Shown here piece after piece: positions 1,057 through 17,863 of a DNA stretch of 64,000 nucleotides. Numbering within the stretch: position 1 is the first letter of the stretch; each line of letters opens with the position of its first letter. Source of the stretch: an uncultured Candidatus Saccharibacteria bacterium (GTDB lineage Bacteria; Patescibacteriota; Dojkabacteria; J137); NCBI GenBank assembly GCA_964414295.1, contig CAYPVU010000031.1, positions 17,885-81,884 on the forward strand, read 5' to 3'. Made by a program: the position numbers and the translations under genes. The notes beneath the pieces were generated by a model that ran no database searches, was not told the origin of the DNA, and was given only the letters and a program-made list of their open reading frames with translations.

Positions 1057-1191
1057 AAAATTTGAGCAGTTGAAACTTACTTTCTTTATCTCTAGCCGAA
1101 ATAAGAAAGTAAGCAAAGAAAGTTGGCTTTTGCTTTTACATCGATAGAAGAATAGTATATTATTTGATAATAATATTTTGCATATAATAGA

Positions 1192-1404
1192 TTGATGGTC
1201 ACTCTTGCAGAGAAAATCAGAACTAGACGTATTGAATTATCCCTGACACAGGAACAATTGGCTATAAAAGCTACAATTCCATACACTACATTATCGAAGA
1301 TTGAAAATGGATTTGTATTGAACCCAACAGTCAAAACACTTAAAAAAATTGCAAAAGCGTTAGAAGTTAATATAGAGGATTTGGTAAAACATGTACAAAT
1401 ATAA
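1192..1404 (+). CDS. HTH XRE-family (Cro/C1-type) transcriptional regulator, controller (C)-protein-like
   Basis: The 70 aa sequence has an XRE-type HTH (LSLTQEQLAIKATIPYTTLSKIENG). Its stop overlaps the downstream methyltransferase start. TATAAT at 1183-1188 is 7 nt upstream of the ATG at 1195 (the track start is TTG at 1192). Confidence 0.75.
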   Translation: MMVTLAEKIRTRRIELSLTQEQLAIKATIPYTTLSKIENGFVLNPTVKTLKKIAKALEVNIEDLVKHVQI

Positions 1405-3229
1405 ACCAGTTATAGCAGAACCACATACACCACCATACAAAATACATAAGTATTTTGCACGAAGACCATGGAATGTTTTCGAACAGTTGGTATGCGAGTT
1501 TGCTAAGGAAAATGAGATAGTATTAGATCCATTTTGCGGTGGTGGAGTAACTATATACGAAGGTATTAAAAATAATAGAAAAGTAATAGGCTTTGATTTA
1601 AATCCTTTATCAATATTCATAGTGGAAAACATGATAAAGGGGTATGATGATATTGCCAAAATCAAAGATATTTATAACTCATTAAATAAATATTTAATGA
1701 GTTTATACGAAAACCTAAAAGAATTTCAAATAGGAGAAAAAGATTTATTTGGAGAAAGAAATTCTCTTGAGTTATGGAATGAATTAACCTTTATCGTATC
1801 TTGCCCCGTTTGTGGTAAATCAACTCAGTTACTTAATAGTCAAAAAGTTAAAAATGGCTTTTACAAGTGTCAAAATGATAATTGCCCTTCTCATAATTCA
1901 AATGTAAATTATTTTCAAGCTAACAAAGCTAAAAGAATTGGAAGGAAATATCTACTAACTGTATACAAAGAATCAAGTAAAAAGAAGGTTGTTCCGTTTG
2001 ATATACATCGAGAAAAAGCATTCCAAAAACATGTTCAATGGTTAAAAAAACAAGTAAGCGATGCAGGTATAACAATACCACAGGAAATTATTCCGATGAA
2101 TTGGGATCGTCAATTCGAAGACACGTTAAGTAAAAAAGGAATACTATATTTCAAAGATTTCTTCACTGAGCGGAATTTATATATAAATCTTTTATTAAAA
2201 GAGAGAATTGATTCGGAACTAAGTGAAACAGAAAGAGATATTTTTAGGTTAATATTTAGTAGTTCGTTAAAAGATACAAATATTATGTCTTTCACAGTTG
2301 ACTCTTGGCAAGGAGGTAACCCAACTTCATGGTCAAAGCATGCTTATTGGATTCCGAATCAATTTTGTGAGACATCAATTATAGAAGCATTTAAGAATGC
2401 TTTTCAAAGGATGGTTGCATCAATAGAGTTTAACAATAGTCATAAAGTAAATGGAAGAAAGGTAAATACATTTGATGAGTTAAAAGGCGAATCAAATGTA
2501 CTCCTTTACAACACTTCAATTTCAAATGAAATCCCCGATTGTGTAATTGATGCAATTATTACTGATCCTCCCTACGGAAGCAATGTACAGTATTTAGAAC
2601 TTTCACATTTTTGGCATATTTGGAACTACGATTTATACAAAAACTCTAACCCTGAGTTTTCTAAAGAAGCCATATTCAATAGAAAGAAAAATTTTGATGG
2701 CTATAAGGACATTAAACAGTACGAAACAAACTTAGAATCAGTATTTAAAGAATGTTATAGAGTCCTGAAAAATGAACGATTCATGACGCTAACATTTAAC
2801 AATAAGGATATTGGAGCATGGCTTGCAATATTAATTGCTATTTTTAAATCTGGTTTTGAATTAGCAGAGAATGGTATCTACTTCCAAGATGGAGTTAAAA
2901 ACTATCGGCAAACATCACATACAAAGTCTAAAGGTTCTCCGTTTGGAGACTTCATATATGTCTTTGTTAAAAATACAAAACAACTCAAAACTAAGGAAAT
3001 TACGCAAAGTGAATTTGTTGATAGATTCCACAAACTTTTTGAGGAGTATGAAAATATAGAGATTGAAGGTACTGAGGAATTAAATCAAAATCTTATAAGG
3101 TTATTTAATAATCTCGTTCCATTAGTTTCTCAACTTGTTAAAACATTTGATAAACACAAAGAAGATCACAGTTTATATGAAATATTAAATAAAAAATATA
3201 TAGACAAACTCTATGATAAAAAGAATTAG
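1391..3229 (+). CDS. DNA amino-methyltransferase (N6-A/N4-C) with Zn-ribbon, COG1743/DUF1156-like N-terminus
   Basis: Motif I is LDPFCGGGVT. A Zn-ribbon is present (CPVCGK...YKCQNDNCPSH). Motif IV is ITDPPYGSNVQY. N-terminal IHKYFARRPW resembles the DUF1156 signature. Confidence 0.8.
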   Translation: MYKYKPVIAEPHTPPYKIHKYFARRPWNVFEQLVCEFAKENEIVLDPFCGGGVTIYEGIKNNRKVIGFDLNPLSIFIVENMIKGYDDIAKIKDIYNSLNKYLMSLYENLKEFQIGEKDLFGERNSLELWNELTFIVSCPVCGKSTQLLNSQKVKNGFYKCQNDNCPSHNSNVNYFQANKAKRIGRKYLLTVYKESSKKKVVPFDIHREKAFQKHVQWLKKQVSDAGITIPQEIIPMNWDRQFEDTLSKKGILYFKDFFTERNLYINLLLKERIDSELSETERDIFRLIFSSSLKDTNIMSFTVDSWQGGNPTSWSKHAYWIPNQFCETSIIEAFKNAFQRMVASIEFNNSHKVNGRKVNTFDELKGESNVLLYNTSISNEIPDCVIDAIITDPPYGSNVQYLELSHFWHIWNYDLYKNSNPEFSKEAIFNRKKNFDGYKDIKQYETNLESVFKECYRVLKNERFMTLTFNNKDIGAWLAILIAIFKSGFELAENGIYFQDGVKNYRQTSHTKSKGSPFGDFIYVFVKNTKQLKTKEITQSEFVDRFHKLFEEYENIEIEGTEELNQNLIRLFNNLVPLVSQLVKTFDKHKEDHSLYEILNKKYIDKLYDKKN

Positions 3230-4541
3230 CAACACAATTAACATACTGGATATTGAAAAATATAATTCTCTAGTAAATGACTATTACAATGTAATCGATT
3301 CTTTATCAAAAAGATTCATAGTTACTGAAAACTATGAACTTGGGAAATTGGTGAATTTTAAAAGTAACTTAAAAGTTCCAAAGCACAATTGGTTCAATTA
3401 TAAACAAGGATATGCAAGCAGACTCGTTAAACAGATAATTGAATGGGAGAAAAAAAATCTAGTTGAAAATTCTGTCATTCTGGATCCGTTTTGTGGAGTT
3501 GGAACTACAAATTTAGAATCGCAAATTTTAGGTTACAGTTCTGTTGGTTATGATATCAATCCAATTGCCTTGTTAATTGCAAAAACGAAGACAACTTTCT
3601 ATACAAAACAAGAATTAGGAGATATCTTAGAAAAGATCAATAAATTTAAAATTGAAATAAATGATATTAAAAGACCTGAGATCCCTGAAGCCAAGGTCTT
3701 AATCAGCTCTTTTAGTCATGAGATTCTAGAAAACCTATTTAGAATCTTAAAATGGACTGAGCAAATTGAAGAAATAAAGACAAGAGACTTTTTTAAATTG
3801 GTTTTAATTTCAACAGTAGATCCATCGTCTTGTAGAGTGAAAGATGGAAATGGAATAAAGCTCTCTAAAACAAAAAAAGTAGTTGAAAATACTTTTGAGT
3901 TTTATTTCAATACTGCTATGCAATTCTATAAGGATATTGAAGAAATAAACTTAGATGTTCCTGTTTCAATAAACGAAGGATCATACTATAAGCATGAAGA
4001 TAATAATGATTTATATGATTTAATTATATATTCCCCTCCATACGCTAACTGCTTCGACTACTTTGAAGTGTATAAACTAGAAATGTGGGTTGCAGGATTT
4101 ATAAGTAAGTATAGTGACTTTGAGGCATACAGAAATTTAGCTATGAGGTCTCATGTCAATGCTAAATTTTCTCATGATTTTACTAATAATTATGCTGAGA
4201 TTAAGCTTATTTCTGATCTCATTCGAACTACTAATGTTTGGAATAAAAATATTCCTGATATGATAATGGGATATTTTGATGATATGTCTACAACACTAGA
4301 ACTTAATTATAAACAATTGAAAAAGGGTAAAAGATGTTACATTGTAGTTGCGAATTCTGGCTATCGTGGAATACTAGTGCCTACAGATTTATTACTTGCT
4401 AAGATTGCATCAAATTATGGATTTAAAATTGTTAATATTTTCCATACTAGAGATATTCGTTCTTCCTCGCAACAAATGAATATCTTAAAGAACGGGTACA
4501 ATAAATTGATGCGGGAGAGTATAATTGTTTTAGAAAAATAA
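3213..4541 (+). CDS. Second DNA amino-methyltransferase (N6-A or N4-C)
   Basis: Motif I is ILDPFCGVGTT and motif IV is IIYSPPYANCFDY, with about 180 aa between them (TRD). It overlaps the upstream methyltransferase by 17 nt. Confidence 0.75.
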   Translation: MIKRISNTINILDIEKYNSLVNDYYNVIDSLSKRFIVTENYELGKLVNFKSNLKVPKHNWFNYKQGYASRLVKQIIEWEKKNLVENSVILDPFCGVGTTNLESQILGYSSVGYDINPIALLIAKTKTTFYTKQELGDILEKINKFKIEINDIKRPEIPEAKVLISSFSHEILENLFRILKWTEQIEEIKTRDFFKLVLISTVDPSSCRVKDGNGIKLSKTKKVVENTFEFYFNTAMQFYKDIEEINLDVPVSINEGSYYKHEDNNDLYDLIIYSPPYANCFDYFEVYKLEMWVAGFISKYSDFEAYRNLAMRSHVNAKFSHDFTNNYAEIKLISDLIRTTNVWNKNIPDMIMGYFDDMSTTLELNYKQLKKGKRCYIVVANSGYRGILVPTDLLLAKIASNYGFKIVNIFHTRDIRSSSQQMNILKNGYNKLMRESIIVLEK

Positions 4542-7378
4542 TGAAATATCTAGAAATTTTAAAAAGAAGATTTAATTCGTGGAAAGAAGTTGAATCTATA
4601 ATCGAAGCATTACCTACAACATATGAAAAGGGGGAAGCCTTCGAGCAATTCGTATTTGCGTATTTATCATTAAATAAATCGCAATATCAAATAAAAGAGT
4701 TATATAGGTCTAAAGATATTCCTCTTACATTTTTAGAAAAATACCGTATAGAAAAAAAAGATAGTGGTGTTGACGGGTTTATCGTTTTTGAAGATGGCAA
4801 GGTTGCTGGATATCAAGTAAAATTCAGAGTAGATAGAAAAGTCCCATCATATGACGAATTAGCTAAGTTCTGGGTTGAATCTCAATATACAGACTATAAT
4901 TATATCGTTGCTAATTGTTATTATCTTACTGAACTAGCCCTCAAGAATCCAAAGCATTTAGCTATTTTAGTGGATACTTTCGATTCACTAACTGATGACT
5001 TTTTTGCTGAATTTCATTCACTAGCGAATTCTCAGGTTGTAAAAGAAAGAAACATTCTAAGACCTTACCCTTTCCAAATTAGGATGATAAATGACATTTT
5101 AGAAGGCTTCAAAAAGAATGATAGAGGTAAATTAATCGCAGCCTGTGGAACTGGTAAAACATTGACATCACTTTGGGTTGCAGAAAAGATTAAGGCAAGT
5201 AGCGTTCTTTTCATTGCTCCCAGCTTGGCTTTAATAAAACAGACACTTGAGAAATGGATGCAGAATTCCATAGTTCCTATTGATTATATCTGTGTTTGTA
5301 GCGATAAAACAGTAGTAAACGAGGATGAAGGAGATATTTTGGCAAGTGAAATTGGTGTGCCAGTAACAACAGATAAGAATGAATTAATAAAGTTCTTAAG
5401 TTCACCTAAGGCCCCCGAAAAATTAAAAGTTGTATTTTCCACATATCAGTCACTTGATGTTGTAAGTAATGCAAGTCTAGAACTAAAGAGTTATTCTTAT
5501 GATCTAGCGATATTTGACGAGGCACATAGAACAGCAGGTTCAAAAGATTCAAGTTTATTCTCTTTGGGATTAAACAATGATTTCATAAATATTCATAAAA
5601 GATTATTTATGACTGCTACCGAAAGACTTATCAAACCTTGGATTAAGAAAAAAGCTGAAGAAAACGAACGTATATTATTTTCTATGGATGATGAGAACCT
5701 CTATGGTCCAGTATTTCATAGATTTTCTTTTGGCGAAGCGATTAAAGAAAGTGTAATTTCAGACTATCGAGTAGTTGTCGCCTCTACAGATGAAAAGTCC
5801 CTTTTGGAAATGCTAAATAAAAACAATATTCTCGAAGTTATTAATAAAAATAACAGTTTAACAAACGCTCAAAATCTTTTTAAACAATTACTGTTGTTAA
5901 AATCTTTTCAGGAATTACCAATTAAAAAGACAATAACTTTCCATTCAAATGTTTTAAAGGCAAAAGAGTTTATCAATGGTGTAAATTCAAATGAACTTAC
6001 TTTTGCTGATTTAGTGAAAAGTCTCGGTAATTTCAACAATAGTTTTTTCTTGGATCATGTAAATGGAAGCATGTCTTCAGGGAAACGAAAAGAAATAATG
6101 CATAATTTTGAAATTTCTGAGTATGGTATTGTTTCTAATGCACGTTGTTTAACTGAAGGTGTTGATGTACCACTCATCGATAGTATATATTTTGTTAATC
6201 CAAAGACCTCAATTATTGACATAGTGCAAGCATGCGGAAGAGCATTAAGAAAAAACAATAACGATTCGAATAAAACTGCTTATTTCATCATACCTGTCAT
6301 TGTTAGTGAAAATAATAATGCAGGAGTTAATAGTGAAGAATTTGAGATGGTTTTTAATGTAATTCAGGCGTTAAGGGACCAAGATAGTAGAATGGCAGAA
6401 TGGATAGATACCTTAAACGATCATCTTGTAAAAGGAAAGGTGTCAAAATTTTCAAGTGGTAAAACTTCACCAATTTCAATAATTCTTCCAAAATCTATCA
6501 ATATAGATGACTTTTCTCGAAATTTGTTAATCCGAATCGCAGATGTAAACAAAAACCCAATTACTTTTTTAAAGACAAAGAGTTACGGTAAAAATGAAAG
6601 AAAAAGTCAATTTAAAAGAGTATTTAAAACAATAGGTGATATTTCTTACGATTCCTTTCAAAAGAATCTTGTTGATCCAACATTAGCAAGATTTAAAAAT
6701 GTTGATGAAATTGTTGAAACAGCTAAATTAGTAATAAACAATAATAATTTATCCCATACCGAACGACTTGGCTTATTGATTAGAGAAAATAAATATGCCT
6801 CACTGACTCCGTTGGGTAAGGCTTATTTTAGAGGGCAAATAAAGTTTATAGATCTGTTTAAGAGACAAATGCTTTATTATTTTAGTAAAGAAGAATTGGA
6901 TGGAAAGGAGATGATAATTTTTCCATACAGAACGACACTAAAAGTCCTCTTAGAAAAAGACTTTATAAGTTTTACCGACTTCGTATTTGGGATTTACTCG
7001 CTTAACAATAGTGAAAGTGATTTTGTCTATCAGTCAATAAATAGAATTAATACACTTAGAAGTAGATTCCCTAATATTGAACAATCTAATATTTCAAATC
7101 GAGAGAAACTTATTGTAGAGCTAAATAATCTATTTGAAACGAATTTTTCTATAACAGATTTATGGGAAAAGAAGACTACTATCAATAATCAGTTTATTTA
7201 CTTTAGAAATCACCTTAGTTTATTTGGAGATATGTTAGAAATTGATAATTCTAACAGAGTAATACGATTGCAAAAGGAAGGATATAATAATCTAAGGAAA
7301 ATAATAAACGATAGTAACATGATAGAAAGTTATACTAATATAAGTATTCTCCGTGAACAATACACAACCATAAATTGA
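4541..7378 (+). CDS. Restriction-type Mrr-like (PD-(D/E)xK) nuclease fused to SF2 DEAH helicase, with a 330-aa uncharacterised C-terminal domain
   Basis: N-terminus has GEAFEQFV and DSGVDGFIVFEDGKVAGYQVKF (Mrr_cat-like). Helicase motifs are AACGTGKT (I), IFDEAHR (II) and QACGRALR (VI). Its start overlaps the stop of the second methyltransferase. Confidence 0.8.
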   Translation: MKYLEILKRRFNSWKEVESIIEALPTTYEKGEAFEQFVFAYLSLNKSQYQIKELYRSKDIPLTFLEKYRIEKKDSGVDGFIVFEDGKVAGYQVKFRVDRKVPSYDELAKFWVESQYTDYNYIVANCYYLTELALKNPKHLAILVDTFDSLTDDFFAEFHSLANSQVVKERNILRPYPFQIRMINDILEGFKKNDRGKLIAACGTGKTLTSLWVAEKIKASSVLFIAPSLALIKQTLEKWMQNSIVPIDYICVCSDKTVVNEDEGDILASEIGVPVTTDKNELIKFLSSPKAPEKLKVVFSTYQSLDVVSNASLELKSYSYDLAIFDEAHRTAGSKDSSLFSLGLNNDFINIHKRLFMTATERLIKPWIKKKAEENERILFSMDDENLYGPVFHRFSFGEAIKESVISDYRVVVASTDEKSLLEMLNKNNILEVINKNNSLTNAQNLFKQLLLLKSFQELPIKKTITFHSNVLKAKEFINGVNSNELTFADLVKSLGNFNNSFFLDHVNGSMSSGKRKEIMHNFEISEYGIVSNARCLTEGVDVPLIDSIYFVNPKTSIIDIVQACGRALRKNNNDSNKTAYFIIPVIVSENNNAGVNSEEFEMVFNVIQALRDQDSRMAEWIDTLNDHLVKGKVSKFSSGKTSPISIILPKSINIDDFSRNLLIRIADVNKNPITFLKTKSYGKNERKSQFKRVFKTIGDISYDSFQKNLVDPTLARFKNVDEIVETAKLVINNNNLSHTERLGLLIRENKYASLTPLGKAYFRGQIKFIDLFKRQMLYYFSKEELDGKEMIIFPYRTTLKVLLEKDFISFTDFVFGIYSLNNSESDFVYQSINRINTLRSRFPNIEQSNISNREKLIVELNNLFETNFSITDLWEKKTTINNQFIYFRNHLSLFGDMLEIDNSNRVIRLQKEGYNNLRKIINDSNMIESYTNISILREQYTTIN

Positions 7379-7411
7379 TTTTTTTAGCGGAATTAATAAC
7401 AATTTGCTTTC

Positions 7412-7440
7412 TTGACGGTTTACGCTATATGCGGTAAAAT
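7412..7440 (+). promoter_or_regulatory. Sigma70-like promoter of lexA (TTGACG-17-TAAAAT) with an embedded imperfect palindrome
   Basis: TTGACG 7412-7417 and TAAAAT 7435-7440. The lexA ATG at 7447 makes a leaderless transcript. TTTACGC-TATAT-GCGGTAAA overlaps the spacer and -10. Confidence 0.5.
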
Positions 7441-7446
7441 TAACGC

Positions 7447-8091
7447 ATGTATAAAAGCGACTTAACACCAAAACAAAGAAATGTTCTCCTTGCAATTGAG
7501 CATTTGTTCAGGATTAATTCTGTTTCACCAACTCTTGAGGAAATTCGCCAGTATCTTAATTATAGTAATACCAGTTCAGTACAAAGGCACATTGAGCCAT
7601 TAATTAAAAAAGGGTATTTAAGAAATCAAGAAAATAAGTCTAGAAGCTTTGAAGTTATCAGCAGTAATATTGATTTAATTAACATTCCACTTGTTGGTAA
7701 TATTGCCTGTGGAATTCCTATCCATGCTGAAGAAAATATTGAAGCTTATATTCCATACCCTAAACAGGATACAAAGTATTCAGTTTCGGAACTATTTTTT
7801 CTCAGAGCTATTGGTGACAGTATGAACGATTATTGTATTAAAAACAAACCAATTCACGATGGGGATTTCGTTTTAATACATCAACAAAGTAATGCAGACT
7901 TAGGACAACCAGTTGTAGCTCTAGTTGGTGACGAAGCTACAATTAAGATTTTCAGTAAAGATACAAATCTTGGAGCTTATGTTTTAAAGCCAAAGTCTAA
8001 TAATCCTAAACATAAACCAATTTTAATATTTGATAATCTTTCAATACAAGGTGTTGCAGTAGATGTAATTAAACCTAAATTATTAAATTAA
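7447..8091 (+). CDS. lexA: LexA repressor (S24 peptidase)
   Basis: N-terminal winged helix (PTLEEIRQYLNYSNTSSVQRHIEPLIKKGYL), an Ala-Gly cleavage site (NIACGIP), the catalytic Ser in GDSM and a downstream Lys. Confidence 0.9.
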   Translation: MYKSDLTPKQRNVLLAIEHLFRINSVSPTLEEIRQYLNYSNTSSVQRHIEPLIKKGYLRNQENKSRSFEVISSNIDLINIPLVGNIACGIPIHAEENIEAYIPYPKQDTKYSVSELFFLRAIGDSMNDYCIKNKPIHDGDFVLIHQQSNADLGQPVVALVGDEATIKIFSKDTNLGAYVLKPKSNNPKHKPILIFDNLSIQGVAVDVIKPKLLN

Positions 8092-8095
8092 TAAT

Positions 8096-8341
8096 ATGAA
8101 GAAAACTAATTATCATGTAATGAAGCATCCCGAAGGTGGGTGGCAAGGCAAAAAGGAAGGGAGCCAAAAGGCAACATTCAAGACCGAGACTAAAAAACAG
8201 GCTGAATTGAAGGCTAAAGCGATAGTTTCCAATCAGGGTGGTGGCGAAGTTAAATTACATGGAGTAAAAGGAAATATTTTGGATTCCGATACAGTTAAAC
8301 CCGCAAAAGATCCAAATCCTCCAAAGGATAAAGTTCATTAA
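8096..8341 (+). CDS. DUF2188-family small protein
   Basis: NYHVMKHPEGGWQGKKEGSQKA...HGVKGNI matches the DUF2188 pattern. It lies 4 nt after lexA. Confidence 0.6.
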   Translation: MKKTNYHVMKHPEGGWQGKKEGSQKATFKTETKKQAELKAKAIVSNQGGGEVKLHGVKGNILDSDTVKPAKDPNPPKDKVH

Positions 8342-8358
8342 TTTTTATTAGACTAAAT

Positions 8359-8712
8359 ATGATAGATTTTTTAGAAAACATTTCATTGATTCATTGGCTT
8401 ATTGGAATAATTATTGTATTAATCCCGATAGCTATTTACTTTATGAAATACATAATTCTACAAATTAAATTTGCTAGAAACTTGAGAAGGAAAATCTATT
8501 TTATAAAATTGAATGATAGTAAACCACTCACAACAGAAAGGACACTTATATCAAATACTCACCTATTCAATGTCGAAAAAGAGATATATTCGATTTCTAA
8601 TGATCCCAAAATATTACAATTAATGAATAAGCACAGTTTATTTGTTGTCGGATATGATAATGGTTATGAAAGAGATGAAGATTTACATAAACTTCTAACT
8701 AAGATTTATTAA
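8359..8712 (+). CDS. Small membrane protein (one N-terminal TM helix), candidate SOS-regulated
   Basis: Hydrophobic segment WLIGIIIVLIPIAIYF and a 17-nt gap after the DUF2188 gene. Confidence 0.4.
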   Translation: MIDFLENISLIHWLIGIIIVLIPIAIYFMKYIILQIKFARNLRRKIYFIKLNDSKPLTTERTLISNTHLFNVEKEIYSISNDPKILQLMNKHSLFVVGYDNGYERDEDLHKLLTKIY

Positions 8713-8758
8713 ATTTTACTGAACTGCTAGAATAGGTTAACTACTTGAAAGTAAAAAT

Positions 8759-9181
8759 ATGGCAGTAAACATTGCAGGAGTTATTAAAAATATTAGACAG
8801 ATAGGCATTTATACGCCTATTATTGAGGCTATTGTAAACTCGATTGAGTCAATAATTCAAAGTAAGCGTGATGATGGAAGAATAACTATAAAAATAGTTA
8901 GAGATACCCAATCTAGATTTGGTGGAGAAGATGACAGTATTCCTTATATTAGATCATTTGAAATCACAGATAATGGCGTAGGCTTTACAGATGAAAATTT
9001 GAAATCATTTGATACATTGTATACTGAGTATAAGCTAACAACAGGTGGTAAAGGATTTGGAAGGTTTACTTTTTTAAAATTCTTTTCTGATGTCAAAATT
9101 GAAAGTATTTATAAAGTAGATAATGCTTACTTAAAAAGATGTTTTAAGTTTGGGACTAAAGAAAATATAGTTGAGAACTAA
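8759..9181 (+). CDS. GHKL (MORC/HATPase_c_3-like) ATPase domain, N-terminal fragment ending at an in-frame TAA
   Basis: N-box EAIVNSIES, D-x-G-x-G box TDNGVGF and a G-rich box TGGKGFGRF. It is in the same reading frame as 9197..10753. Confidence 0.6.
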   Translation: MAVNIAGVIKNIRQIGIYTPIIEAIVNSIESIIQSKRDDGRITIKIVRDTQSRFGGEDDSIPYIRSFEITDNGVGFTDENLKSFDTLYTEYKLTTGGKGFGRFTFLKFFSDVKIESIYKVDNAYLKRCFKFGTKENIVEN

Positions 9182-9196
9182 ACAGTTGTTGAAACT

Positions 9197-10753
9197 TTGG
9201 CAGATGATACAAAAACAACTCTTTATTTAAGTAATTTATTTGATGAACATCTTGAAAAATTTGATAAAAAAATTGAGACTGTTGCAAAAAGATTAGTAGA
9301 TAGTTTATTGATTTATTTTATTTCCCCTGATTTTAAATGCCCAGAAATCATACTTATCGAAGATAATAGTAATGATTCAATTATTCTTAATGATTTTGTT
9401 AAAAGTGAAGAGTCGATTAAAAGAGTCAAAGATGGCAGTTTTGAAATTGATAGGTCAGGAAAAACATATTCATTTGATGTAAAAGTTTTCAAAATTTATT
9501 CTGCACATAATCAAAGTAGTAACATAATACTTTGCGGTCACAATCGAGAAGTTACTTCTTCTCCTTTACATAACTATGTTCCAGAATTTAAAGATGAGTT
9601 CTTCGAAAATGTAAAAGGAGATTCTGAAGATGATATAAAAAAGAATTTTATTATAAGAACTTATGTTATTGGAAAATATCTAGATGAGAATGTCTCGCTT
9701 GAAAGGTCTCGATTTGAAATTCCAAGGAAGAAAAATGACGATGCCTTATTGAACTCAATCTCTCAAGAAGAAATTGAACTACTTGCGGTGGAGATAACTA
9801 AATCCCAATTTAGTGAGGATGTTCTTTCTCGCCAGTTGAAGAAAAAAGAAAGAGTTGAAAAGTATGTTAATACAGAAGCTCCATGGAATAAAGTCTATTT
9901 GGATAAAATTGATTTTAACTCAATACCTTACGATGCTTCTGATGTAGAAATCGAAACTATTCTTCATAAGGAGAGAATCGCTCACGAAGTAAAGGTAAAA
10001 CAGGATATTTCAAACATCTTAAAAAACAATGATGATTTTGTTAAGAGTGTAGATGAAGTTGTTAGTCAACTTAATGATGTAAGCAAAACGGATCTTGCTC
10101 ATTATGTTGTACTTAGAAAAAATGTTTTAGATTTGTTTAAAAAATCCTTAGAGATACAGCCGAATGATACATATGACTTAGAAAAAGCAGTACACCAAAT
10201 AATATTCCCATTAAAATCTAATAGTACCAATACGGAGTATAAAGACCATAACCTATGGTTAATTGATGAGAGATTGAGTTTCCATGAATATGTCTCTTCA
10301 GATGAACCATTGAAAGAAACTAACGACAGACCTGATATCTTGATTTTTGACAAGAAAGTATTGGTAAGGAATGATAATGAACTTTCAAACCCCCTTTATA
10401 TTTTTGAGTTTAAAAGACCACAGCGAGAAGAGTATTCAGAGGGTGATGATCCTATAAAACAAATTAATCGATATGTTGAACAGATAAGAGCGGGTAATTT
10501 TAAAACTAAAAGTGGACGAACTGTAATTGCAAATGCTAATACTCCTGCATATGGTTTTATAATATGCGATTTAACGCCCAAAGTGAGAGCATTTTGCAGA
10601 GATGCTCAATTAACCCAAAGTTCTGATGAACAAGCGTATTATGGCTATCACTCTTCTTACAAAATATACTTTGAAGTCATAAGCTTTGATAAACTGGTCA
10701 AGGATTCAGAATTAAGGAATAGAATTTTCTTTAAAAAGTTGGGATTAGAGTAA
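9197..10753 (+). CDS. PD-(D/E)xK nuclease-containing protein; probable continuation of the GHKL ATPase gene
   Basis: RPDILIFD...YIFEFKRP is a PD-(D/E)xK motif. The track start is TTG with no ATG or SD. It is in frame with 8759..9181, separated only by TAA at 9179-9181. Confidence 0.6.
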   Translation: MADDTKTTLYLSNLFDEHLEKFDKKIETVAKRLVDSLLIYFISPDFKCPEIILIEDNSNDSIILNDFVKSEESIKRVKDGSFEIDRSGKTYSFDVKVFKIYSAHNQSSNIILCGHNREVTSSPLHNYVPEFKDEFFENVKGDSEDDIKKNFIIRTYVIGKYLDENVSLERSRFEIPRKKNDDALLNSISQEEIELLAVEITKSQFSEDVLSRQLKKKERVEKYVNTEAPWNKVYLDKIDFNSIPYDASDVEIETILHKERIAHEVKVKQDISNILKNNDDFVKSVDEVVSQLNDVSKTDLAHYVVLRKNVLDLFKKSLEIQPNDTYDLEKAVHQIIFPLKSNSTNTEYKDHNLWLIDERLSFHEYVSSDEPLKETNDRPDILIFDKKVLVRNDNELSNPLYIFEFKRPQREEYSEGDDPIKQINRYVEQIRAGNFKTKSGRTVIANANTPAYGFIICDLTPKVRAFCRDAQLTQSSDEQAYYGYHSSYKIYFEVISFDKLVKDSELRNRIFFKKLGLE

Positions 10754-13653: not shown

Positions 13654-14190
13654 ATGGCAATTCAAACAGCAACTTTTGCAGCAGGATGTTTTTGGTGTGT
13701 AGAAGCTATTTTTGAAAGAGTAAAAGGCGTTAGTAAAGTAGTTTCTGGCTACACTGGAGGATTTATGGACAATCCTACATACGAACAAGTTAGTACAGGT
13801 AAGACGGGCCATGCAGAAGCAACTCAAATTGAATTTGACGACAGCATTGTAAGTTTTAGAGATTTGGTAAATATTTTCTTTTTAACTCACGATCCTACAA
13901 CTTTAAATAAACAAGGCGCTGATATAGGGTCACAATATAGATCTGCAGTTTTTTTTAATAGTGAAGAGCAAAAAAGCATAGCAGAGGAAGTAAAGAAAGA
14001 AATAGAAGAAAAGAAAGTGTATTCAGACCCTATAGTTACTGAAATATCGGAATTAAAAAAGTTTTATTCTGCAGAAAAGTATCATCAAAACTTTTATGAT
14101 AATAATAGAGACTATCCATACTGTAAGATAGTTATAGATCCAAAAGTTTCTAAATTTAGAAAAGAGTTTATAGATAAGATTAATGAATAA
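13654..14190 (+). CDS. msrA: Peptide methionine sulfoxide reductase MsrA
   Basis: Active-site GCFWC motif and length consistent with MsrA. Confidence 0.9.
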   Translation: MAIQTATFAAGCFWCVEAIFERVKGVSKVVSGYTGGFMDNPTYEQVSTGKTGHAEATQIEFDDSIVSFRDLVNIFFLTHDPTTLNKQGADIGSQYRSAVFFNSEEQKSIAEEVKKEIEEKKVYSDPIVTEISELKKFYSAEKYHQNFYDNNRDYPYCKIVIDPKVSKFRKEFIDKINE

Positions 14191-15835
14191 TAAATTAATT
14201 AAAGGGTTCGTTTTTGTATTAATACTAGTATCTACTAGCACCTTTTTTCAATTAAACCTAAGCGCAGAAACTCACTACAAAAGAGTATTAACAATAGGAG
14301 TAAACCCAGTTGAAAACGGAGAAAGTTTGGTAGAAAAGTTTTTTGGTAATTCTTCTAATATAGAAAACTCAACCTTCAATGGAGCAATAAGCAGACTTAA
14401 TCAAATTGGAATAAACTATACAATAGCAAGGCATATTAATATTTCTGAGTTTCCGCTTTTACCTAATGGTAATCGAGTATTTAATATGAATTCTTATTCA
14501 AAGTGTGTTGGTGGAGGAACAGCACAGGACATTCAAAACTGCGACAATAGCAAATGGCAATTCAGTTATTCTAAATTCTTTGATGATTTCAATATATGCT
14601 CAATAGCAAATCAAGAAAACGTAGATGAAATTTGGATTTTAACACCTCCCTATATTGGCAAGTGGGAGAGTTTATTAGTTGGTCCTTATGAGGGGTTTTG
14701 GATTAATGGAGTAGCAGAGGTTAATAGTAACTGCAATAAACTTTATCCAGTTATGGGCCCTACTTATGACCGTCCCGAAAATTTACTTCATAACTTTGGA
14801 CACAGAATAGAATCTACGATTGAATATATATTTACAAATATTAAAGATGAAGATAAAAATACCCACTGGAGAAGGTTTTCCGGATTTGGAGGTCAACCGC
14901 TAGGATGTGGTAATACACATTTCCCAAGAAATTATAGATATGACTACGATTATTCCAATCCAAGCCCAGCATCTTTTAATTGCCCTGACTGGAAAAACTT
15001 TCCTAATTATAATGGAGCAACAATAAATGTGGGCTGCAATAGCTGGGGATGTGATGACCCTGGATGGGAGAGGTTTTGGTTTTCTTACATACCTTCATCT
15101 AGTGGAAATGCTGTTATATACAATACAAACAATCAGGCAGTAAGTATAAAAAAAGACTGGTGGTACTATATATTAAATCCTCAAGAATCAATTGCTTTTG
15201 TTAATTACTCTTCTAATCCAGGACCACTTGAATGTTCCATATTCTCTTATTCAGAATGGAGTAAATGCATAGATGGTACACAAACAAGAACTTTAACAGG
15301 TAGTAATCCTCCTGGATGTACTGGAGGAAGTCCTGTTTTGTCTCAATCCTGTACTGTTTGCTACAAATATACTTACTCTAACTGGGGTGCTTGTATAAAT
15401 GGAATACAAAAAAGATTTATTACACAATTAACAGAAACTAATTGTCCTGGAGAGGAGAAAAAAAGTTTAGAGCAGAGCTGTTCAAGTATCAATAACCCAA
15501 CGGGAAATACTCTTCCTCAAAGTCCCGAAGGTAATTCACAAGAACCAACACCTACAGTTACAATTCCTACAAACTTACCTATATTAAATACAGTTCCAAT
15601 CTCTTACTCACCAGCTCCAACATTGGCAGATATATTATCTGCAATAATTCCTGGATTAAAAACTCAGAATACACAAGAAGGTGTAAGCTACACAATAAAC
15701 CCTTCTTTTGATGAAATAAATAATCGTTTAGTGAACCTAATGGCTGTATTAGCAATTTCTGGTGCAGGTTTAGTAATAATGATTTATGTATTTTTATACA
15801 GTAAGGTTATCGTTAAAAGATTTAAAAAAGCATAA
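14183..15835 (+). CDS. Secreted cell-surface protein with tandem Cys-containing ~45-aa repeats and a C-terminal TM anchor
   Basis: Signal peptide present. Repeats are YSEWSKCIDGTQTRT...C...QSC and YSNWGACINGIQKRF...C...QSC. C-terminal hydrophobic anchor followed by KRFKKA. Confidence 0.5.
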   Translation: MNNKLIKGFVFVLILVSTSTFFQLNLSAETHYKRVLTIGVNPVENGESLVEKFFGNSSNIENSTFNGAISRLNQIGINYTIARHINISEFPLLPNGNRVFNMNSYSKCVGGGTAQDIQNCDNSKWQFSYSKFFDDFNICSIANQENVDEIWILTPPYIGKWESLLVGPYEGFWINGVAEVNSNCNKLYPVMGPTYDRPENLLHNFGHRIESTIEYIFTNIKDEDKNTHWRRFSGFGGQPLGCGNTHFPRNYRYDYDYSNPSPASFNCPDWKNFPNYNGATINVGCNSWGCDDPGWERFWFSYIPSSSGNAVIYNTNNQAVSIKKDWWYYILNPQESIAFVNYSSNPGPLECSIFSYSEWSKCIDGTQTRTLTGSNPPGCTGGSPVLSQSCTVCYKYTYSNWGACINGIQKRFITQLTETNCPGEEKKSLEQSCSSINNPTGNTLPQSPEGNSQEPTPTVTIPTNLPILNTVPISYSPAPTLADILSAIIPGLKTQNTQEGVSYTINPSFDEINNRLVNLMAVLAISGAGLVIMIYVFLYSKVIVKRFKKA

Positions 15836-15877: not shown

Positions 15878-17863
15878 TTAGATAGCTGGTTTTGGTTCCG
15901 AAGAACTACTTCCTGAACCATAAGTACCTTTAACAGAATTATTTACTAATCTTTGCAACTCAACATAATCTTCTGAATTTTGAGCAGATAAAGATAAGAA
16001 CATTGCGTCATCTGCTGTAAATTCTGAATCTGCAAAACCTACGGAATAATTATACTCTTGTAAAGTAAATTTATTATTTCCATATTCAAAAACTAATATA
16101 TAGTTTTTAGTTCTGCATTCATTATTTTCACAATTAGCAGAGTCAACAGGAAGTAGAGCAGACCTTTCCATTGCTAATGGCATAATGCTTGAGTTCTCTG
16201 AAACAAAGCTGTAAAGAGTTGCATTTACAGATTCGCCATTAATATTAATTGCTACTGTTTCTTCTTTTTTATCAGAGATTTTATTCCAAAGCAGACTGTT
16301 TAATATATCTAAATTACTGTACTCATTAGAATAAAAGGATAGATTGTAAGATACACTATTTCTTGAGTAAGAAGTCATACCTAAAGACATAGGTGTATTA
16401 CCTGCTAAATATGTACCAACTCCAGCGTAGGAATTATACATTTTATCTCCATTTGCTCCTGCAGGGTAAAAATTCCTATCTGTATAGTAAGAAGTAGTAT
16501 TATCTACTGTAGGTTCATCATTTATGTAGGAGTTAAAATAGATATATTGATTTTCTACAACAGAAGATGGAACTACTACTGTAATATTCTCATTTCTAGC
16601 AAAATCTAATGCCTTCTGAATTTCTGCATCTGGGTTATATTCTGGTATATCTGTAGGAGTAGTATTTAAATCAATATCTTTTACTTCTACATTATATTCA
16701 AAATCAAAATTACCTGAAACTGAGGCAAAGTCTAAATCTGCGTTCTCTACAATTGTTTCTGATCTTTCAACTAAATTATTAGCACTCACACTGTCTAAAT
16801 AAGTCTCAGTTCTTAAGATTTGATATGTTTCTGTATCTGCATAAGATAAGTAGAACATTTTTCTTAAATCTTCTACATCTTCACTTTGCCATCTATTTAG
16901 ATTTACAAATCCAGCACAATTAACATCGTAAGAATATTGAATTACATAATATTCTTTCCCATTAATATTCTCTGTTCTTAACACCTGAGCTTCAGGGCCA
17001 AAATATGTTGTGTAATCCACTTCTGGAGCAGCTCCCACACCTTCAGCAGGTGCTTCAACAGGTCTTTCTGGTAAAGAAGGTTCTACTAAATCTACTGGCA
17101 TTGGATCAACTTGTACTGGTGCAGGGTCTACCTGAGTTTCACTTACAGTTCTTACAGCATAACTTCCTCCATAGTAAGTAATGTTCTCGTATCTATATGT
17201 TGTAGATGTAGAAGTTGATTTAGATAAATTATATGTATTGACAGTACCATCTTCATTGTAGCCTACATACTTAGAATAGTAGTTTGAATCTCCATTATAA
17301 TTAAAGCTTTCGTAAACAGGTACAAATACTACATTTGTTTGATCTACCCCATAAGTACAGCTGTTAAATGCAGGACCTCTTTCAGTAGTAGATTTTGAAT
17401 AGTAATAGCTAGAAGCCGGCTGATACATATATCCTGGAGCAGGAGCAATCATCTTAGAGGAAGCCATATCCCTTGTTGCAAGTGCTGCAGCATTTTCTGC
17501 AGAAGAACCTGCACTATATTGTCCAAGATTTGGATTATTCATTGCGATCTTCTGTAGGATACTCTTTTGATCGAAAGAGTTATTAGAAGATTGAGTACTT
17601 AGTCTTGTAAGTACAAACGCCGTAGTGAGTACAACAGCTAAAACAGCTACTGCAAGTGCACTCAATACAGCTACTTTTCTTTTTAACATAAAGAACTGTA
17701 TAAAAATTAAATTACTATTAATATTACTTTTTGCTGAAAAATCGGTAACAGAATTTCTTGAAAAGTTTTTCAAGTTTTCTAAAGTAGACTGCTGCCACTC
17801 ATTTGTAGGTTCTGCATTACTTTGTTTTATTAAATTTTGTAATTGATCGTCACTTATTTTCAT
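15878..17863 (-). CDS. Putative anti-sigma factor / large extracytoplasmic protein (one TM helix)
   Basis: Overlaps the upstream ECF sigma gene by 14 nt. Has a cytoplasmic N-terminus of about 60 aa, a TM helix (VAVLSALAVAVLAVVLTTAFVL) and a large Ser/Tyr/Asn-rich ectodomain. Confidence 0.5.
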   Translation of the reverse strand: MKISDDQLQNLIKQSNAEPTNEWQQSTLENLKNFSRNSVTDFSAKSNINSNLIFIQFFMLKRKVAVLSALAVAVLAVVLTTAFVLTRLSTQSSNNSFDQKSILQKIAMNNPNLGQYSAGSSAENAAALATRDMASSKMIAPAPGYMYQPASSYYYSKSTTERGPAFNSCTYGVDQTNVVFVPVYESFNYNGDSNYYSKYVGYNEDGTVNTYNLSKSTSTSTTYRYENITYYGGSYAVRTVSETQVDPAPVQVDPMPVDLVEPSLPERPVEAPAEGVGAAPEVDYTTYFGPEAQVLRTENINGKEYYVIQYSYDVNCAGFVNLNRWQSEDVEDLRKMFYLSYADTETYQILRTETYLDSVSANNLVERSETIVENADLDFASVSGNFDFEYNVEVKDIDLNTTPTDIPEYNPDAEIQKALDFARNENITVVVPSSVVENQYIYFNSYINDEPTVDNTTSYYTDRNFYPAGANGDKMYNSYAGVGTYLAGNTPMSLGMTSYSRNSVSYNLSFYSNEYSNLDILNSLLWNKISDKKEETVAININGESVNATLYSFVSENSSIMPLAMERSALLPVDSANCENNECRTKNYILVFEYGNNKFTLQEYNYSVGFADSEFTADDAMFLSLSAQNSEDYVELQRLVNNSVKGTYGSGSSSSEPKPAI

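What the first reader, a model, noticed from the sequence alone, without database searches (positions are those of the whole stretch)
1160..7378. Four-gene restriction-modification-like operon with an atypical makeup: C-protein, two amino-methyltransferases, Mrr-like nuclease/SF2-helicase fusion
All four ORFs overlap by 1-17 nt, which points to translational coupling. The 70-aa XRE HTH sits where R-M controller proteins sit. Both methyltransferases carry motif I (DPFCGGG / DPFCGVGTT) N-terminal to motif IV (DPPY / SPPY), and no separate specificity subunit is present. The 945-aa partner has an Mrr_cat-like nuclease head, then DEAH helicase motifs, then a 330-aa tail of unknown function. This does not fit Type I (no HsdS). 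It does not fit Type III (Res has the helicase before the nuclease, and one Mod). BREX and DISARM are excluded because PglZ, BrxC, PLD and DUF1998 are absent. Two methyltransferases plus an ATP-dependent nuclease would suit an asymmetric target with each strand methylated separately. That would be a Type IIS-like modification logic coupled to a translocating nuclease.
Basis: partly seen in the sequence, partly recalled or inferred. Interest (0 to 1): 0.7.

Follow-up and report, generated by a model that had tools for sequence, protein, structure and literature searches.

The report
Motor-driven restriction enzyme, two methylases
This is a bacterial anti-virus gene cassette: two DNA-marking enzymes plus one DNA-cutting motor protein whose front half matches known 'Type ISP' restriction enzymes and whose tail resembles the DNA-reading part of 'Type IIS' enzymes. 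The combination is widespread, and I found no description of it.

Summary
The four overlapping ORFs are real. The core is three genes: methyltransferase MA (612 aa, DPPY), methyltransferase MB (442 aa, SPPY) and R (945 aa).

- **Linkage.** In 52 loci from archaea, bacteria and viral contigs, every tail-bearing R with enough flank sits beside MA and MB. They occur in three gene orders, and once MA and MB are fused. The only R without methyltransferases has lost its nuclease domain.
- **Regulator.** The HTH is not conserved; other loci carry unrelated HTH or RHH proteins, or none.

Best reading: an ATP-dependent restriction-modification system in which R finds an asymmetric site itself and each methyltransferase protects one strand.

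I found no paper or library model covering this architecture. REBASE could not be checked. No biochemistry exists. I rate it a new variant of a known kind.

The parts
1135..1189 (+). Possible promoter/operator upstream of the HTH gene. TTTACA-17-TATTAT at 1135-1163. An 8-bp perfect palindrome ATATTATT/AATAATAT at 1157-1164 and 1169-1176 overlaps the -10 element.
   Evidence: This is weak evidence. The region is AT-rich, and the consensus scan found fewer promoter-like sites than shuffled sequence gave. Function is not shown.
1192..1404 (+). Small XRE-family HTH protein (70 aa from TTG 1192, 69 aa from ATG 1195). It is a candidate controller or regulator of the cassette, and its end overlaps the MA start by 14 nt.
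   Evidence: Pfam HTH_3 2e-14. PADLOC Control_protein 1.4e-8 and HTH_VI 2.5e-11. PDB hits to 434 Cro/repressor and to C.Esp1396I at similar E-values. It is not conserved in the family; other loci have different XRE or RHH proteins, or none.
1391..3229 (+). Methyltransferase MA (612 aa). A permuted N6_N4 amino-methyltransferase, predicted N6-adenine. Motif I DPFCGGG is at aa 46-52 (nt 1526-1546). A four-cysteine zinc ribbon is at aa 138-165 (nt 1802-1885). Motif IV DPPY is at aa 392-395 (nt 2564-2575). The variable, TRD-like segments are aa 81-240, 341-380 and 541-612.
   Evidence: Pfam N6_N4_Mtase 9e-24. PADLOC MTase_II 1e-35 and PglXI 4e-35. NCBIfam DUF1156_antiphage, partial, 2e-14. DPPYG is present in 45/45 sequences and C138/C141/C160/C165 in 45/45. 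Conservation profile.
3213..4541 (+). Methyltransferase MB (442 aa). A permuted amino-methyltransferase and distant paralogue of MA, predicted N4-cytosine from its SPPY motif. Motif I DPFCGVG is at aa 91-97 (nt 3483-3503). Motif IV SPPY is at aa 274-277 (nt 4032-4043). The variable segments are aa 1-40, 121-200 and 221-260.
   Evidence: Pfam N6_N4_Mtase 6e-11. PADLOC MTase_II PDLC03224, full length, 1e-70. SPPY is present in 50/50 sequences. hhalign of MA against MB gives probability 97.9%. MA and MB are fused in one 1128-aa ORF in L094, with both motif sets intact.
4541..5035 (+). R, aa 1-165: Mrr-family PD-(D/E)xK nuclease domain. Catalytic motif E35, D74, G76, D78, Q92, K94 (D74-K94 = nt 4760-4822).
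   Evidence: It aligns to LlaBIII residues 30-165. The residues are invariant in 25 homologues. They correspond to LlaGI E38/D74/D78/Q92/K94; D74A, D78A and K94A abolish LlaGI cleavage (PMC2790908). Model pLDDT is about 90.
5036..6439 (+). R, aa 166-633: SF2 helicase-like dsDNA translocase with two RecA lobes. Walker A GTGKT is at aa 203-207 (nt 5147-5161). DEAH is at aa 326-329 (nt 5516-5527). TAT is at aa 358-360 and QxxGRxxR at aa 563-570.
6440..6607 (+). R, aa 634-689: short, low-confidence linker. It takes the place of the roughly 150-aa all-helical coupler of Type ISP enzymes.
   Evidence: pLDDT 48-73. The alignment to LlaBIII ends at query residue 633.
6608..7375 (+). R, aa 690-945: multi-winged-helix domain with the fold of Type IIS DNA-recognition domains. 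It is the predicted sequence reader. Invariant residues lie on the putative recognition helices: NNxSHT at aa 735-740 and TTxxNQxxYxxxH at aa 879-891.

Best explanation
This is an ATP-dependent restriction-modification system assembled from a Type ISP 'engine' and Type IIS 'logic'.

**Shown**
- MA, MB and R form an obligately linked gene unit.
- The R head is homologous to the Mrr-nuclease plus SF2 dsDNA-translocase half of LlaBIII/LlaGI. All catalytic and ATPase motifs are intact.
- R lacks the Type ISP coupler, methyltransferase and TRD.
- The R C-terminus has the multi-winged-helix fold of the BpuJI and Nt.BspD6I sequence-recognition domains.
- Both methyltransferases keep their SAM-binding and D/SPPY catalytic motifs in every family member.

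**Inferred**
1. The C-terminal domain of R itself binds an unmethylated, asymmetric target sequence. R and the methyltransferases therefore read the site independently, as in Type II systems.
2. MA (DPPY, probably m6A) and MB (SPPY, probably m4C) each modify one strand of that site. Both daughter duplexes then stay protected after replication.
3. Binding of R to an unmodified site switches on the SF2 motor, which pulls in or tracks along dsDNA.
4. The Mrr nuclease cuts away from the site, most likely when the motor stalls or collides with a second R, as in Type ISP enzymes.
5. In this locus the small XRE protein probably times or limits expression, like a controller protein.

For: **Catalytic residues.** E35, D74, D78, Q92, K94, GTGKT, DEAH, TAT and QxxGRxxR are invariant in 25 homologues. 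They match the residues mutated in LlaGI.

**Linkage.**
- 44 + 8 loci carry all three genes, in three different orders: MA-MB-R, R-MA-MB, and R convergent with MB-MA.
- MA and MB are fused in L094 with both motif sets intact.
- The only R lacking methyltransferases within 6 kb (L045) has lost its nuclease domain.
- In a gut clade, R is split in three loci while both methyltransferases stay intact.

**Methyltransferases.** DPPY 45/45 and SPPY 50/50.

**General logic.** Two methyltransferases as a solution for asymmetric sites is standard Type IIS practice (PMC12707154). MB-like methyltransferases also occur in pairs beside other nucleases on plasmids.

**Mobility.** The cassettes sit next to integrases, recombinases and conjugation genes, and on IMG/VR viral contigs.
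Against: - There is no biochemical or methylome evidence. The recognition sequence, the modified bases and the cleavage behaviour are all unknown.
- The tail assignment rests on AlphaFold models built from 18-25 sequences. The fold scores are moderate (TM 0.33-0.46, 12-18% identity).
- The putative recognition helices carry invariant residues across archaea and bacteria. No segment of R is hypervariable. That is unlike most TRDs, and it fits a non-specific DNA clamp or a family-wide fixed specificity equally well.
- MA's nearest profile relatives (PglXI, DUF1156) belong to systems in which the methyltransferase supplies recognition for the nuclease. R could therefore still depend on MA and MB.
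- In Type ISP enzymes the motor is coupled to the methyltransferase-TRD through a dedicated coupler domain. Here there is only a ~55-aa low-confidence linker, so the mode of motor activation is a guess.
- Assigning m4C from SPPY is a rule of thumb.
Confidence: 0.6

Rival explanations
1. A Type I/III-like holoenzyme. R has no sequence specificity of its own. Its winged-helix tail docks onto MA and/or MB, or clamps DNA non-specifically. The methyltransferases' TRDs recognise the target for both modification and restriction.
For: MA is profile-related to PglXI and DUF1156 methyltransferases, which supply recognition in BREX-related systems (MANTIS preprint). The most variable segments of the system lie in MA and MB (mean identity 0.28 and 0.32), not in the R tail (0.40). 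Residues on the tail's putative recognition helices are invariant. Tight gene overlaps and a strictly conserved trio are what one expects of a complex.
Against: The tail's best structural matches are two autonomous sequence-reading domains, not protein-docking modules. The gene order R / MA-MB is shuffled, and convergent in about 10 loci, so translational coupling of R with the methyltransferases is not required. Two catalytically intact methyltransferases would be unnecessary if hemimethylation plus site-orientation logic were used, as in Type III and Type ISP.
Confidence: 0.22
2. R is a modification-dependent (Type IV-like) motor nuclease. Its winged helices sense a foreign methylation pattern. 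The two methyltransferases are functionally separate, serving for example epigenetic or anti-restriction roles.
For: The nuclease belongs to the Mrr family, whose founder is modification-dependent. Prokaryotic winged-helix domains can act as m6A sensors, as in DpnI and HhiV4I (abstract of PMC11037411, seen). Head-only relatives with HA repeats have no MA- or MB-like methyltransferase within the stretches fetched.
Against: Every tail-bearing R with enough flank has MA and MB beside it, in 52 loci and three gene orders. The one orphan R lacks its nuclease domain. That is the pattern of a toxic nuclease needing its cognate protection. The closest homologues, LlaGI and LlaBIII, cut unmodified DNA. 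The tail matches multi-domain Type IIS readers, not the single winged helix of DpnI.
Confidence: 0.06
3. This is not a cleaving restriction system. It is a BREX-like or epigenetic module in which R acts as a translocase or remodeller that blocks replication or displaces proteins, without making double-strand breaks. Alternatively it is a DNA-repair helicase that happens to be linked to methyltransferases.
Against: The Mrr catalytic residues are invariant across the family, which argues for selection on nuclease activity. No PglZ, BrxC or DUF499 partner is present. The cassettes lie in mobile and defence-type neighbourhoods.
Confidence: 0.07

Closest known systems
[quoted passage not shown]
   Same: [quoted passage not shown] It is followed by the same SF2 two-lobe dsDNA translocase. 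Sequence E 1e-72, 28% identity over 565 structurally aligned residues.
   Different: Type ISP is one ~1570-aa chain with a helical coupler, one gamma-class N6-adenine methyltransferase and a TRD shared by modification and restriction (PMC4872093). Here the chain ends after a winged-helix domain of a different fold. There are two separate, permuted beta-like methyltransferases. LlaBIII does not appear among the structural matches of the tail.
Type IIS systems with modular readers (BpuJI, Nt.BspD6I/N.BstNBI family, FokI) and paired or fused methyltransferases
   Same: The C-terminal domain of R has the multi-winged-helix fold of their recognition domains. Two methyltransferases accompany R and are fused in one locus, which is the arrangement known from Type IIS systems.
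   Different: There is no detectable sequence similarity.
ATP-dependent Type II enzymes CglI / NgoAVII
   Same: The concept is shared: a nuclease with its own site-reading domain works with an SF2 helicase-like motor, and methylation is supplied separately (abstracts of PMC4267653, PMC5737866 and PMC5861437, seen).
Type III (EcoP15I) and classical Type I systems
   Different: Type III Res has the helicase before the nuclease, relies on one Mod for recognition and hemimethylates. Type I needs HsdS and gamma-class HsdM. Neither architecture is present.
BREX-related / MANTIS (Gao_RL) systems
   Same: MA shows partial profile similarity to PglXI and DUF1156 methyltransferases. Both are methylation-based defences that include a helicase-nuclease effector. 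Some have a small repressor upstream.
   Different: MANTIS needs a DUF499 AAA+ ATPase and a small co-regulator. Its effector is a PLD-SF2 protein like SauUSI, and it hemimethylates. None of these partners is present here.
Mrr-SF2 proteins with C-terminal HA (PF03457) repeats
   Same: The same nuclease-motor head (phmmer 350-450 bits).
   Different: The tail consists of 3-12 HA repeats instead of the winged-helix reader. No MA or MB lies beside them. As far as I know these proteins are uncharacterised.

Membership tests
Type ISP restriction-modification enzyme | N-terminal Mrr-family nuclease with the D74/D78/Q92/K94-type motif | tested here: met
   The alignment to LlaBIII and invariant residues at identical positions, compared with the LlaGI mutagenesis.
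Type ISP restriction-modification enzyme | SF2 helicase-like ATPase directly after the nuclease | tested here: met
Type ISP restriction-modification enzyme | All functions on a single polypeptide: coupler, gamma-class N6-adenine methyltransferase and C-terminal TRD fused to the motor | tested here: not met
   R ends at 945 aa. Homology to LlaBIII stops at residue 633. The PADLOC profiles are matched only over their first ~660 of ~1600 positions. The methyltransferases are separate genes of the permuted N6_N4 type.
Type ISP restriction-modification enzyme | TRD shared by methylation and restriction, with the Type ISP/MmeI-like fold | tested here: not met
Type IIS restriction-modification system | Restriction protein built from a separate sequence-recognition domain and a separate cleavage domain | tested here: met
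   The domain models and fold matches. This holds at the level of fold only.
Type IIS restriction-modification system | Two methyltransferases, or a fused double methyltransferase, for the two strands of an asymmetric site | tested here: met
   MA and MB are both present with intact motifs in all loci. They are fused in L094. Strand assignment is not testable here.
Type IIS restriction-modification system | Cleavage at a fixed short distance from the site, needing Mg2+ only and no NTP | not testable with these tools
   The invariant SF2 ATPase motifs make ATP-independent action unlikely, so I do not file this as a standard Type IIS system.
Type I restriction-modification system | Separate HsdS specificity subunit and gamma-class HsdM | tested here: not met
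   Pfam, PADLOC and NCBIfam hit no such gene in 1192-10753, and the related loci fetched hold no gene beside the trio that recurs.
Type III restriction-modification system | Res with helicase N-terminal and nuclease C-terminal, plus a single Mod that provides recognition | tested here: not met
   The nuclease is N-terminal, and there are two methyltransferases.
BREX / MANTIS / DISARM | Hallmark partners: PglZ, BrxC/DUF499, DUF3870, PLD nuclease, DUF1998 | tested here: not met
   None was detected in the window ORFs from 1192 to 10753. None was seen in the neighbourhoods shown.
Type IV (modification-dependent) restriction enzyme | Acts alone, with no cognate methyltransferase required or co-inherited | tested here: not met
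   All 52 complete loci have MA and MB next to R. The single orphan R lacks its nuclease domain.
Restriction-modification controller (C) protein | Small HTH_3 protein encoded at the head of the operon | tested here: met
Restriction-modification controller (C) protein | Cognate C-box operator upstream, and specific similarity to known C proteins | tested here: inconclusive
   There is only an AT-rich 8-bp palindrome at 1157-1176. Similarity to C.Esp1396I (1.5e-4) is no better than to 434 Cro (1e-4). The gene is not conserved in the family.

The most novel reading that the evidence does not exclude
This would be a distinct class of ATP-dependent restriction-modification system. A Type ISP-derived nuclease-motor carries its own Type IIS-type sequence reader and acts independently of its two strand-specific methyltransferases. 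Recognition would follow Type II rules: R and M read the site separately and both strands are marked. Cleavage would follow Type I/ISP rules: long-range translocation. Such an enzyme would not need the head-to-head site rule that hemimethylating systems (Type III, Type ISP, MANTIS) use to spare newly replicated self DNA. It could therefore attack DNA carrying a single site or sites in any orientation.
Probability: 0.45. Interest if true: 0.7.

Novelty: new variant of a known kind. Interest (0 to 1): 0.6.

Why it matters
- **A natural domain swap.** The Type ISP nuclease-motor appears to be a portable cassette. Evolution has joined it to at least three different C-terminal modules: coupler-methyltransferase-TRD, HA repeats, and a Type IIS-like reader. 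This offers a way to ask what actually switches the motor on.
- **Reach.** The family occurs in archaea, diverse bacteria, human-gut metagenomes and viral contigs. It is annotated only as "DEAD/DEAH box helicase" plus "DNA methyltransferase". The PADLOC models match only the head of R and the two methyltransferases, so the architecture as a whole goes unrecognised.
- **A testable question.** If R reads its site on its own, the family directly tests how site orientation, one-strand versus two-strand methylation and translocation relate to each other. That question is currently debated for Type III, Type ISP, BREX and MANTIS systems.
- **A possible tool.** The compact winged-helix reader fused to a motor-nuclease could also be useful as a programmable or re-targetable module.

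Tried and rejected
- **Sequence searches on the tail.** Pfam at E up to 10, a profile search of PDB sequences, and tblastn against phage and plasmid records all found nothing. Only structure comparison was informative.
- **afdb50.** This fold library was unavailable.
- **MANTIS/Gao_RL.** I considered it because of the DUF1156-like signal in MA. I rejected it because its effector is PLD-SF2 and it needs DUF499 and a small co-regulator.
- **PbeA, dnd_restrict_1, Cas3 and DinG hits on R.** These cover only the generic helicase core.
- **Co-variation test.** All regions co-diverge (Spearman 0.62-0.91) and no domain swaps appear. The test neither supports nor excludes co-evolving specificity.
- **C-box search.** Inconclusive.
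- **Neighbouring genes.** LexA-like, DUF2188, the membrane-protein ORF and the GHKL ATPase are not conserved with the cassette, so I did not count them as parts.
- **Literature.** Five full-text searches found no description of this architecture.
- **Host.** I did not try to identify the host organism.

Full report
**1.

The ORF listing gives four + strand ORFs:
- 1192-1404: 70 aa from TTG, with an ATG at 1195.
- 1391-3229: 612 aa, called MA here.
- 3213-4541: 442 aa, called MB here.
- 4541-7378: 945 aa, called R here.

They overlap by 14, 17 and 1 nt. The MB/R junction reads TAATG. An independent Logan assembly contig (L002) carries the identical cassette with the same gene calls.

Pfam finds the following:
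- HTH_3 in the first ORF.
- N6_N4_Mtase in both methyltransferases, in permuted order: the SAM-binding FxGxG part is N-terminal and the D/SPPY part is C-terminal.
- ResIII and Helicase_C in R.

The R tail has no Pfam hit even at E = 10. The Mrr-like head scores only E = 0.12 against Mrr_cat_2. GC content is about 30% throughout, with no compositional break at the cassette.

**2. The R head is a Type ISP nuclease-motor**

- Against PDB sequences, R residues 27-633 align to LlaBIII residues 30-661 (E 1.2e-72) and to LlaGI (E 4.7e-67).
- PADLOC models built from fused enzymes match only over their first ~660 positions: REase_MTase_IIG (1646 positions, E 1e-105) and REase_MTase_I (1591 positions, E 8e-74).
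- In 25 full-length homologues these residues are invariant: E35, D74, G76, D78, Q92, K94, the Walker A GTGKT (203-207), DEAH (326-329), TAT (358-360) and QxxGRxxR (563-570).
- They correspond one-to-one to LlaGI E38, D74, D78, Q92 and K94. D74A, D78A and K94A abolish LlaGI cleavage (PMC2790908).

**3. The "unknown" tail has the fold of Type IIS recognition domains**

Type ISP enzymes continue after the motor with an all-helical coupler, a gamma-class N6-adenine methyltransferase and a TRD (PMC4872093). R does not.

I modelled residues 596-945 from an 18-sequence alignment. Mean pLDDT is 80, and mostly 80-95 from about residue 690 onward. The model shows repeated winged-helix units.

- **Foldseek.** It independently places BpuJI recognition-domain entries, including the cognate-DNA complex 2vla, and Nt.BspD6I entries as its top 11 hits. 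Probability is 1.00 and TM is 0.33-0.46. Every later hit has probability 0.25 or less.
- **What the BpuJI domain does.** The BpuJI N-terminal domain binds its asymmetric site specifically as a monomer (PMC1874659).
- **LlaBIII.** It is not among the tail's structural matches.
- **The linker.** Between motor and reader there is only a ~55-residue low-confidence linker.
- **Distribution.** A profile of the tail, searched against 1.84 billion representative proteins, finds 155 proteins. Almost all are ~890-1005 aa with the tail at about 600-950, or are fragments of such proteins. At sequence level the tail belongs to this family only.

**4. MA, MB and R form a conserved unit**

R has more than 100 full-length homologues at 45-57% identity. 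They come from Woesearchaeota, Methanofastidiosa, Firestonebacteria, Bacteroidota, Pseudothioglobus and many metagenomes. Sources name them only "DEAD/DEAH box helicase".

I fetched neighbourhoods, 79 metagenome loci and 8 IMG/VR loci. I then ran my own ORF and phmmer census.

- 52 loci carry all three genes.
- Every tail-bearing R with enough flanking sequence has MA and MB beside it.
- Three gene orders occur: MA-MB-R in 34 loci, R-MA-MB in 8, and R convergent with MB-MA in 10.
- In L094, MA and MB are fused into one 1128-aa protein. It keeps DCFCGGG, DPPY, DPFCGSG and SPPY.
- The only R with no methyltransferase within 6 kb (L045) lacks the first ~158 residues, which form the nuclease domain.
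- In a clade of near-identical human-gut cassettes, R is split in L026, L042 and L069 while both methyltransferases remain intact.

These are the patterns expected when a toxic nuclease depends on cognate methylation.

Neighbours are typically integrases, recombinases and conjugation genes. No sequenced plasmid or phage in the annotated collections carries the tail.

**5. The methyltransferases**

- DPPYG is present in 45 of 45 MA sequences. The four cysteines of a zinc ribbon (C138, C141, C160, C165) are also present in 45 of 45. SPPY is present in 50 of 50 MB sequences.
- MA and MB are distant paralogues with the same permuted order (hhalign probability 97.9%).
- MB matches a REBASE-derived Type II methyltransferase model over its full length (1e-70). 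MA matches another such model (1e-35) and partially matches PglXI and DUF1156.
- Their most variable segments lie between and after the catalytic motifs, where TRDs would sit: MA 81-240, 341-380 and 541-612; MB 1-40, 121-200 and 221-260.
- By the usual motif rule (my own knowledge), DPPY suggests N6-adenine and SPPY suggests N4-cytosine. This is an inference, not a result.
- MB-like methyltransferases on plasmids also come in pairs next to other nucleases. One example is a methyltransferase pair followed by an HNH endonuclease in Pseudanabaena.

**6. The HTH**

It is a generic XRE protein. It resembles 434 Cro and repressor about as well as the controller protein C.Esp1396I.

Among MA-MB-R loci, the gene just upstream of MA varies:
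- another XRE protein in L015, L016 and L033;
- a short RHH/CopG-like protein in L003/L010/L013 and in L019/L060;
- nothing recognisable in the others.

A small regulator is therefore a recurrent but interchangeable accessory. The conserved system has three genes. An 8-bp palindrome at 1157-1176 overlaps a promoter-like site. In DNA this AT-rich, that proves little.

**7. Mechanism**

- **Shown:** homology of the nuclease-motor, intact catalytic motifs, absence of a Type ISP methyltransferase-TRD, a Type IIS-like reader fold, obligate linkage with two intact methyltransferases, and a natural MA-MB fusion.
- **Inferred:** R binds an unmethylated asymmetric site through its own C-terminal reader. 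MA and MB each methylate one strand. Site binding activates ATP-driven translocation. The Mrr nuclease cuts at a distance, probably on stalling or collision.

I put this at about 0.6.

The main rival (about 0.22) is a holoenzyme in which the methyltransferases provide recognition and the tail docks or clamps. Four points favour it:
- MA's kinship with BREX-type methyltransferases.
- The methyltransferases being more variable than the tail.
- Invariant residues on the tail's putative recognition helices (NNxSHT at 735-740; TTxxNQxxYxxxH at 879-891).
- All regions co-diverging with no domain swaps.

The linkage data make a Type IV reading unlikely. The invariant nuclease residues make a non-cleaving reading unlikely.

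**8. Comparison and novelty**

- It is not a Type ISP enzyme: the single-chain, coupler, gamma-methyltransferase and shared-TRD features were tested and not met.
- It is not a standard Type IIS system, because it has a motor with invariant ATPase motifs.
- It is not Type I or Type III: there is no HsdS, the domain order is wrong, and there are two methyltransferases.
- It is not BREX, MANTIS or DISARM, because no hallmark partner is present.
- It works most like a cross between Type ISP (the engine) and Type IIS (reader and two-strand methylation).
- The only functional precedent I know for a site-reading nuclease with an SF2 motor and a separate methyltransferase is CglI/NgoAVII. That system is built from unrelated domains.
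- Five full-text literature searches found no description of this architecture. No PADLOC, Pfam or NCBIfam model covers the tail.
- REBASE could not be queried, and that remains the main gap in the novelty claim.

I classify this as a new variant of a known kind, with interest about 0.6.

**9. Limits**

Everything functional is inferred. The structures are predictions from shallow alignments, and the fold scores for the tail are moderate. Many of the 52 loci are near-duplicates: there are 45 distinct MA sequences, 50 distinct MB sequences and 49 distinct R sequences. The host organism was not identified. The window is chromosomal, carrying aminoacyl-tRNA synthetase and FtsK genes.

Noticed in passing
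window 8759-10753: A HATPase_c (GHKL) ORF of 140 aa (8759-9181) and a 518-aa ORF with a weak PD-(D/E)xK hit (9197-10753) lie in the same frame. A single TAA at 9179-9181 separates them. This is either a nonsense-interrupted ~660-aa GHKL-nuclease gene or two genes. A GHKL-like 598-aa ORF also abuts the cassette in L030, though the similarity is weak (5e-7).
   Followed up: partly
window 7447-8341: A LexA-like repressor (LexA_DNA_bind + Peptidase_S24; NCBIfam lexA 2e-39) and a DUF2188 protein (PADLOC candidate PDC-S16, 7e-19) lie directly downstream of R, behind their own promoter-like site (7412-7440). A DUF2188 gene also follows the cassette in L019. Otherwise the pair is not conserved with the system.
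   Followed up: partly
C-termini of R homologues (P0004, P0009, P0017 and others; L003 8001-10871): Most R homologues end in a short, strongly hydrophobic peptide, for example ...IVIFMLFKL or ...NFVIFTL. The window protein lacks it and ends ...REQYTTIN. Its role is unknown; it could be a membrane or protein anchor.
   Followed up: no
L026, L042, L069, L061 (human-gut metagenome contigs): Within a clade of nearly identical cassettes, R is split into two ORFs in three loci while MA and MB stay intact. In L061 both MB and R are broken. This looks like recurrent inactivation of the nuclease, but sequencing errors were not excluded.
   Followed up: partly
L094 9360-12746 (- strand), IMG/VR contig: A single 1128-aa ORF fuses an N-terminal excisionase-like HTH, an MA module (DCFCGGG, CPDC zinc ribbon, DPPY) and an MB module (DPFCGSG, SPPY).
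   Followed up: yes
L045 6007-8397: An orphan R homologue of 796 aa lacks the N-terminal nuclease domain. It has no MA or MB within 6 kb on either side.
   Followed up: yes
L068, L072-L075, L077, L078, L082, L083, L086: Relatives of the R head (Mrr-like nuclease + SF2 motor) carry 3-12 C-terminal HA repeats (PF03457, helicase-associated domain). They are 891-1457 aa long and have no MA- or MB-like methyltransferase within the stretches fetched. Many of the plasmid hits to R outside the listed Type ISP enzymes are in Streptomyces (398 records) and were not examined; they may be of this type.
   Followed up: partly
window 1076-1123 and 1031-1059: Upstream of the cassette there is an 11-bp perfect inverted repeat, CTTACTTTCTT/AAGAAAGTAAG (1076-1086 and 1103-1113), with a third copy of the arm at 1115-1123. 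A GC-richer hairpin, TTTGAGGGTT/AACCCTCAAA (1031-1059), looks like the terminator of the preceding small gene.
   Followed up: no
window 1-64000: The window is chromosomal and about 30% GC, with a class-I W/Y-type aminoacyl-tRNA synthetase, FtsK and ArgRS genes. Many sizeable ORFs have no Pfam hit (for example 14183-15835 and 15878-17863). The 64 kb contain no tRNA or Rfam match. The small ORFs at 183-1019 upstream of the cassette have no Pfam match. The host was not identified.
   Followed up: no
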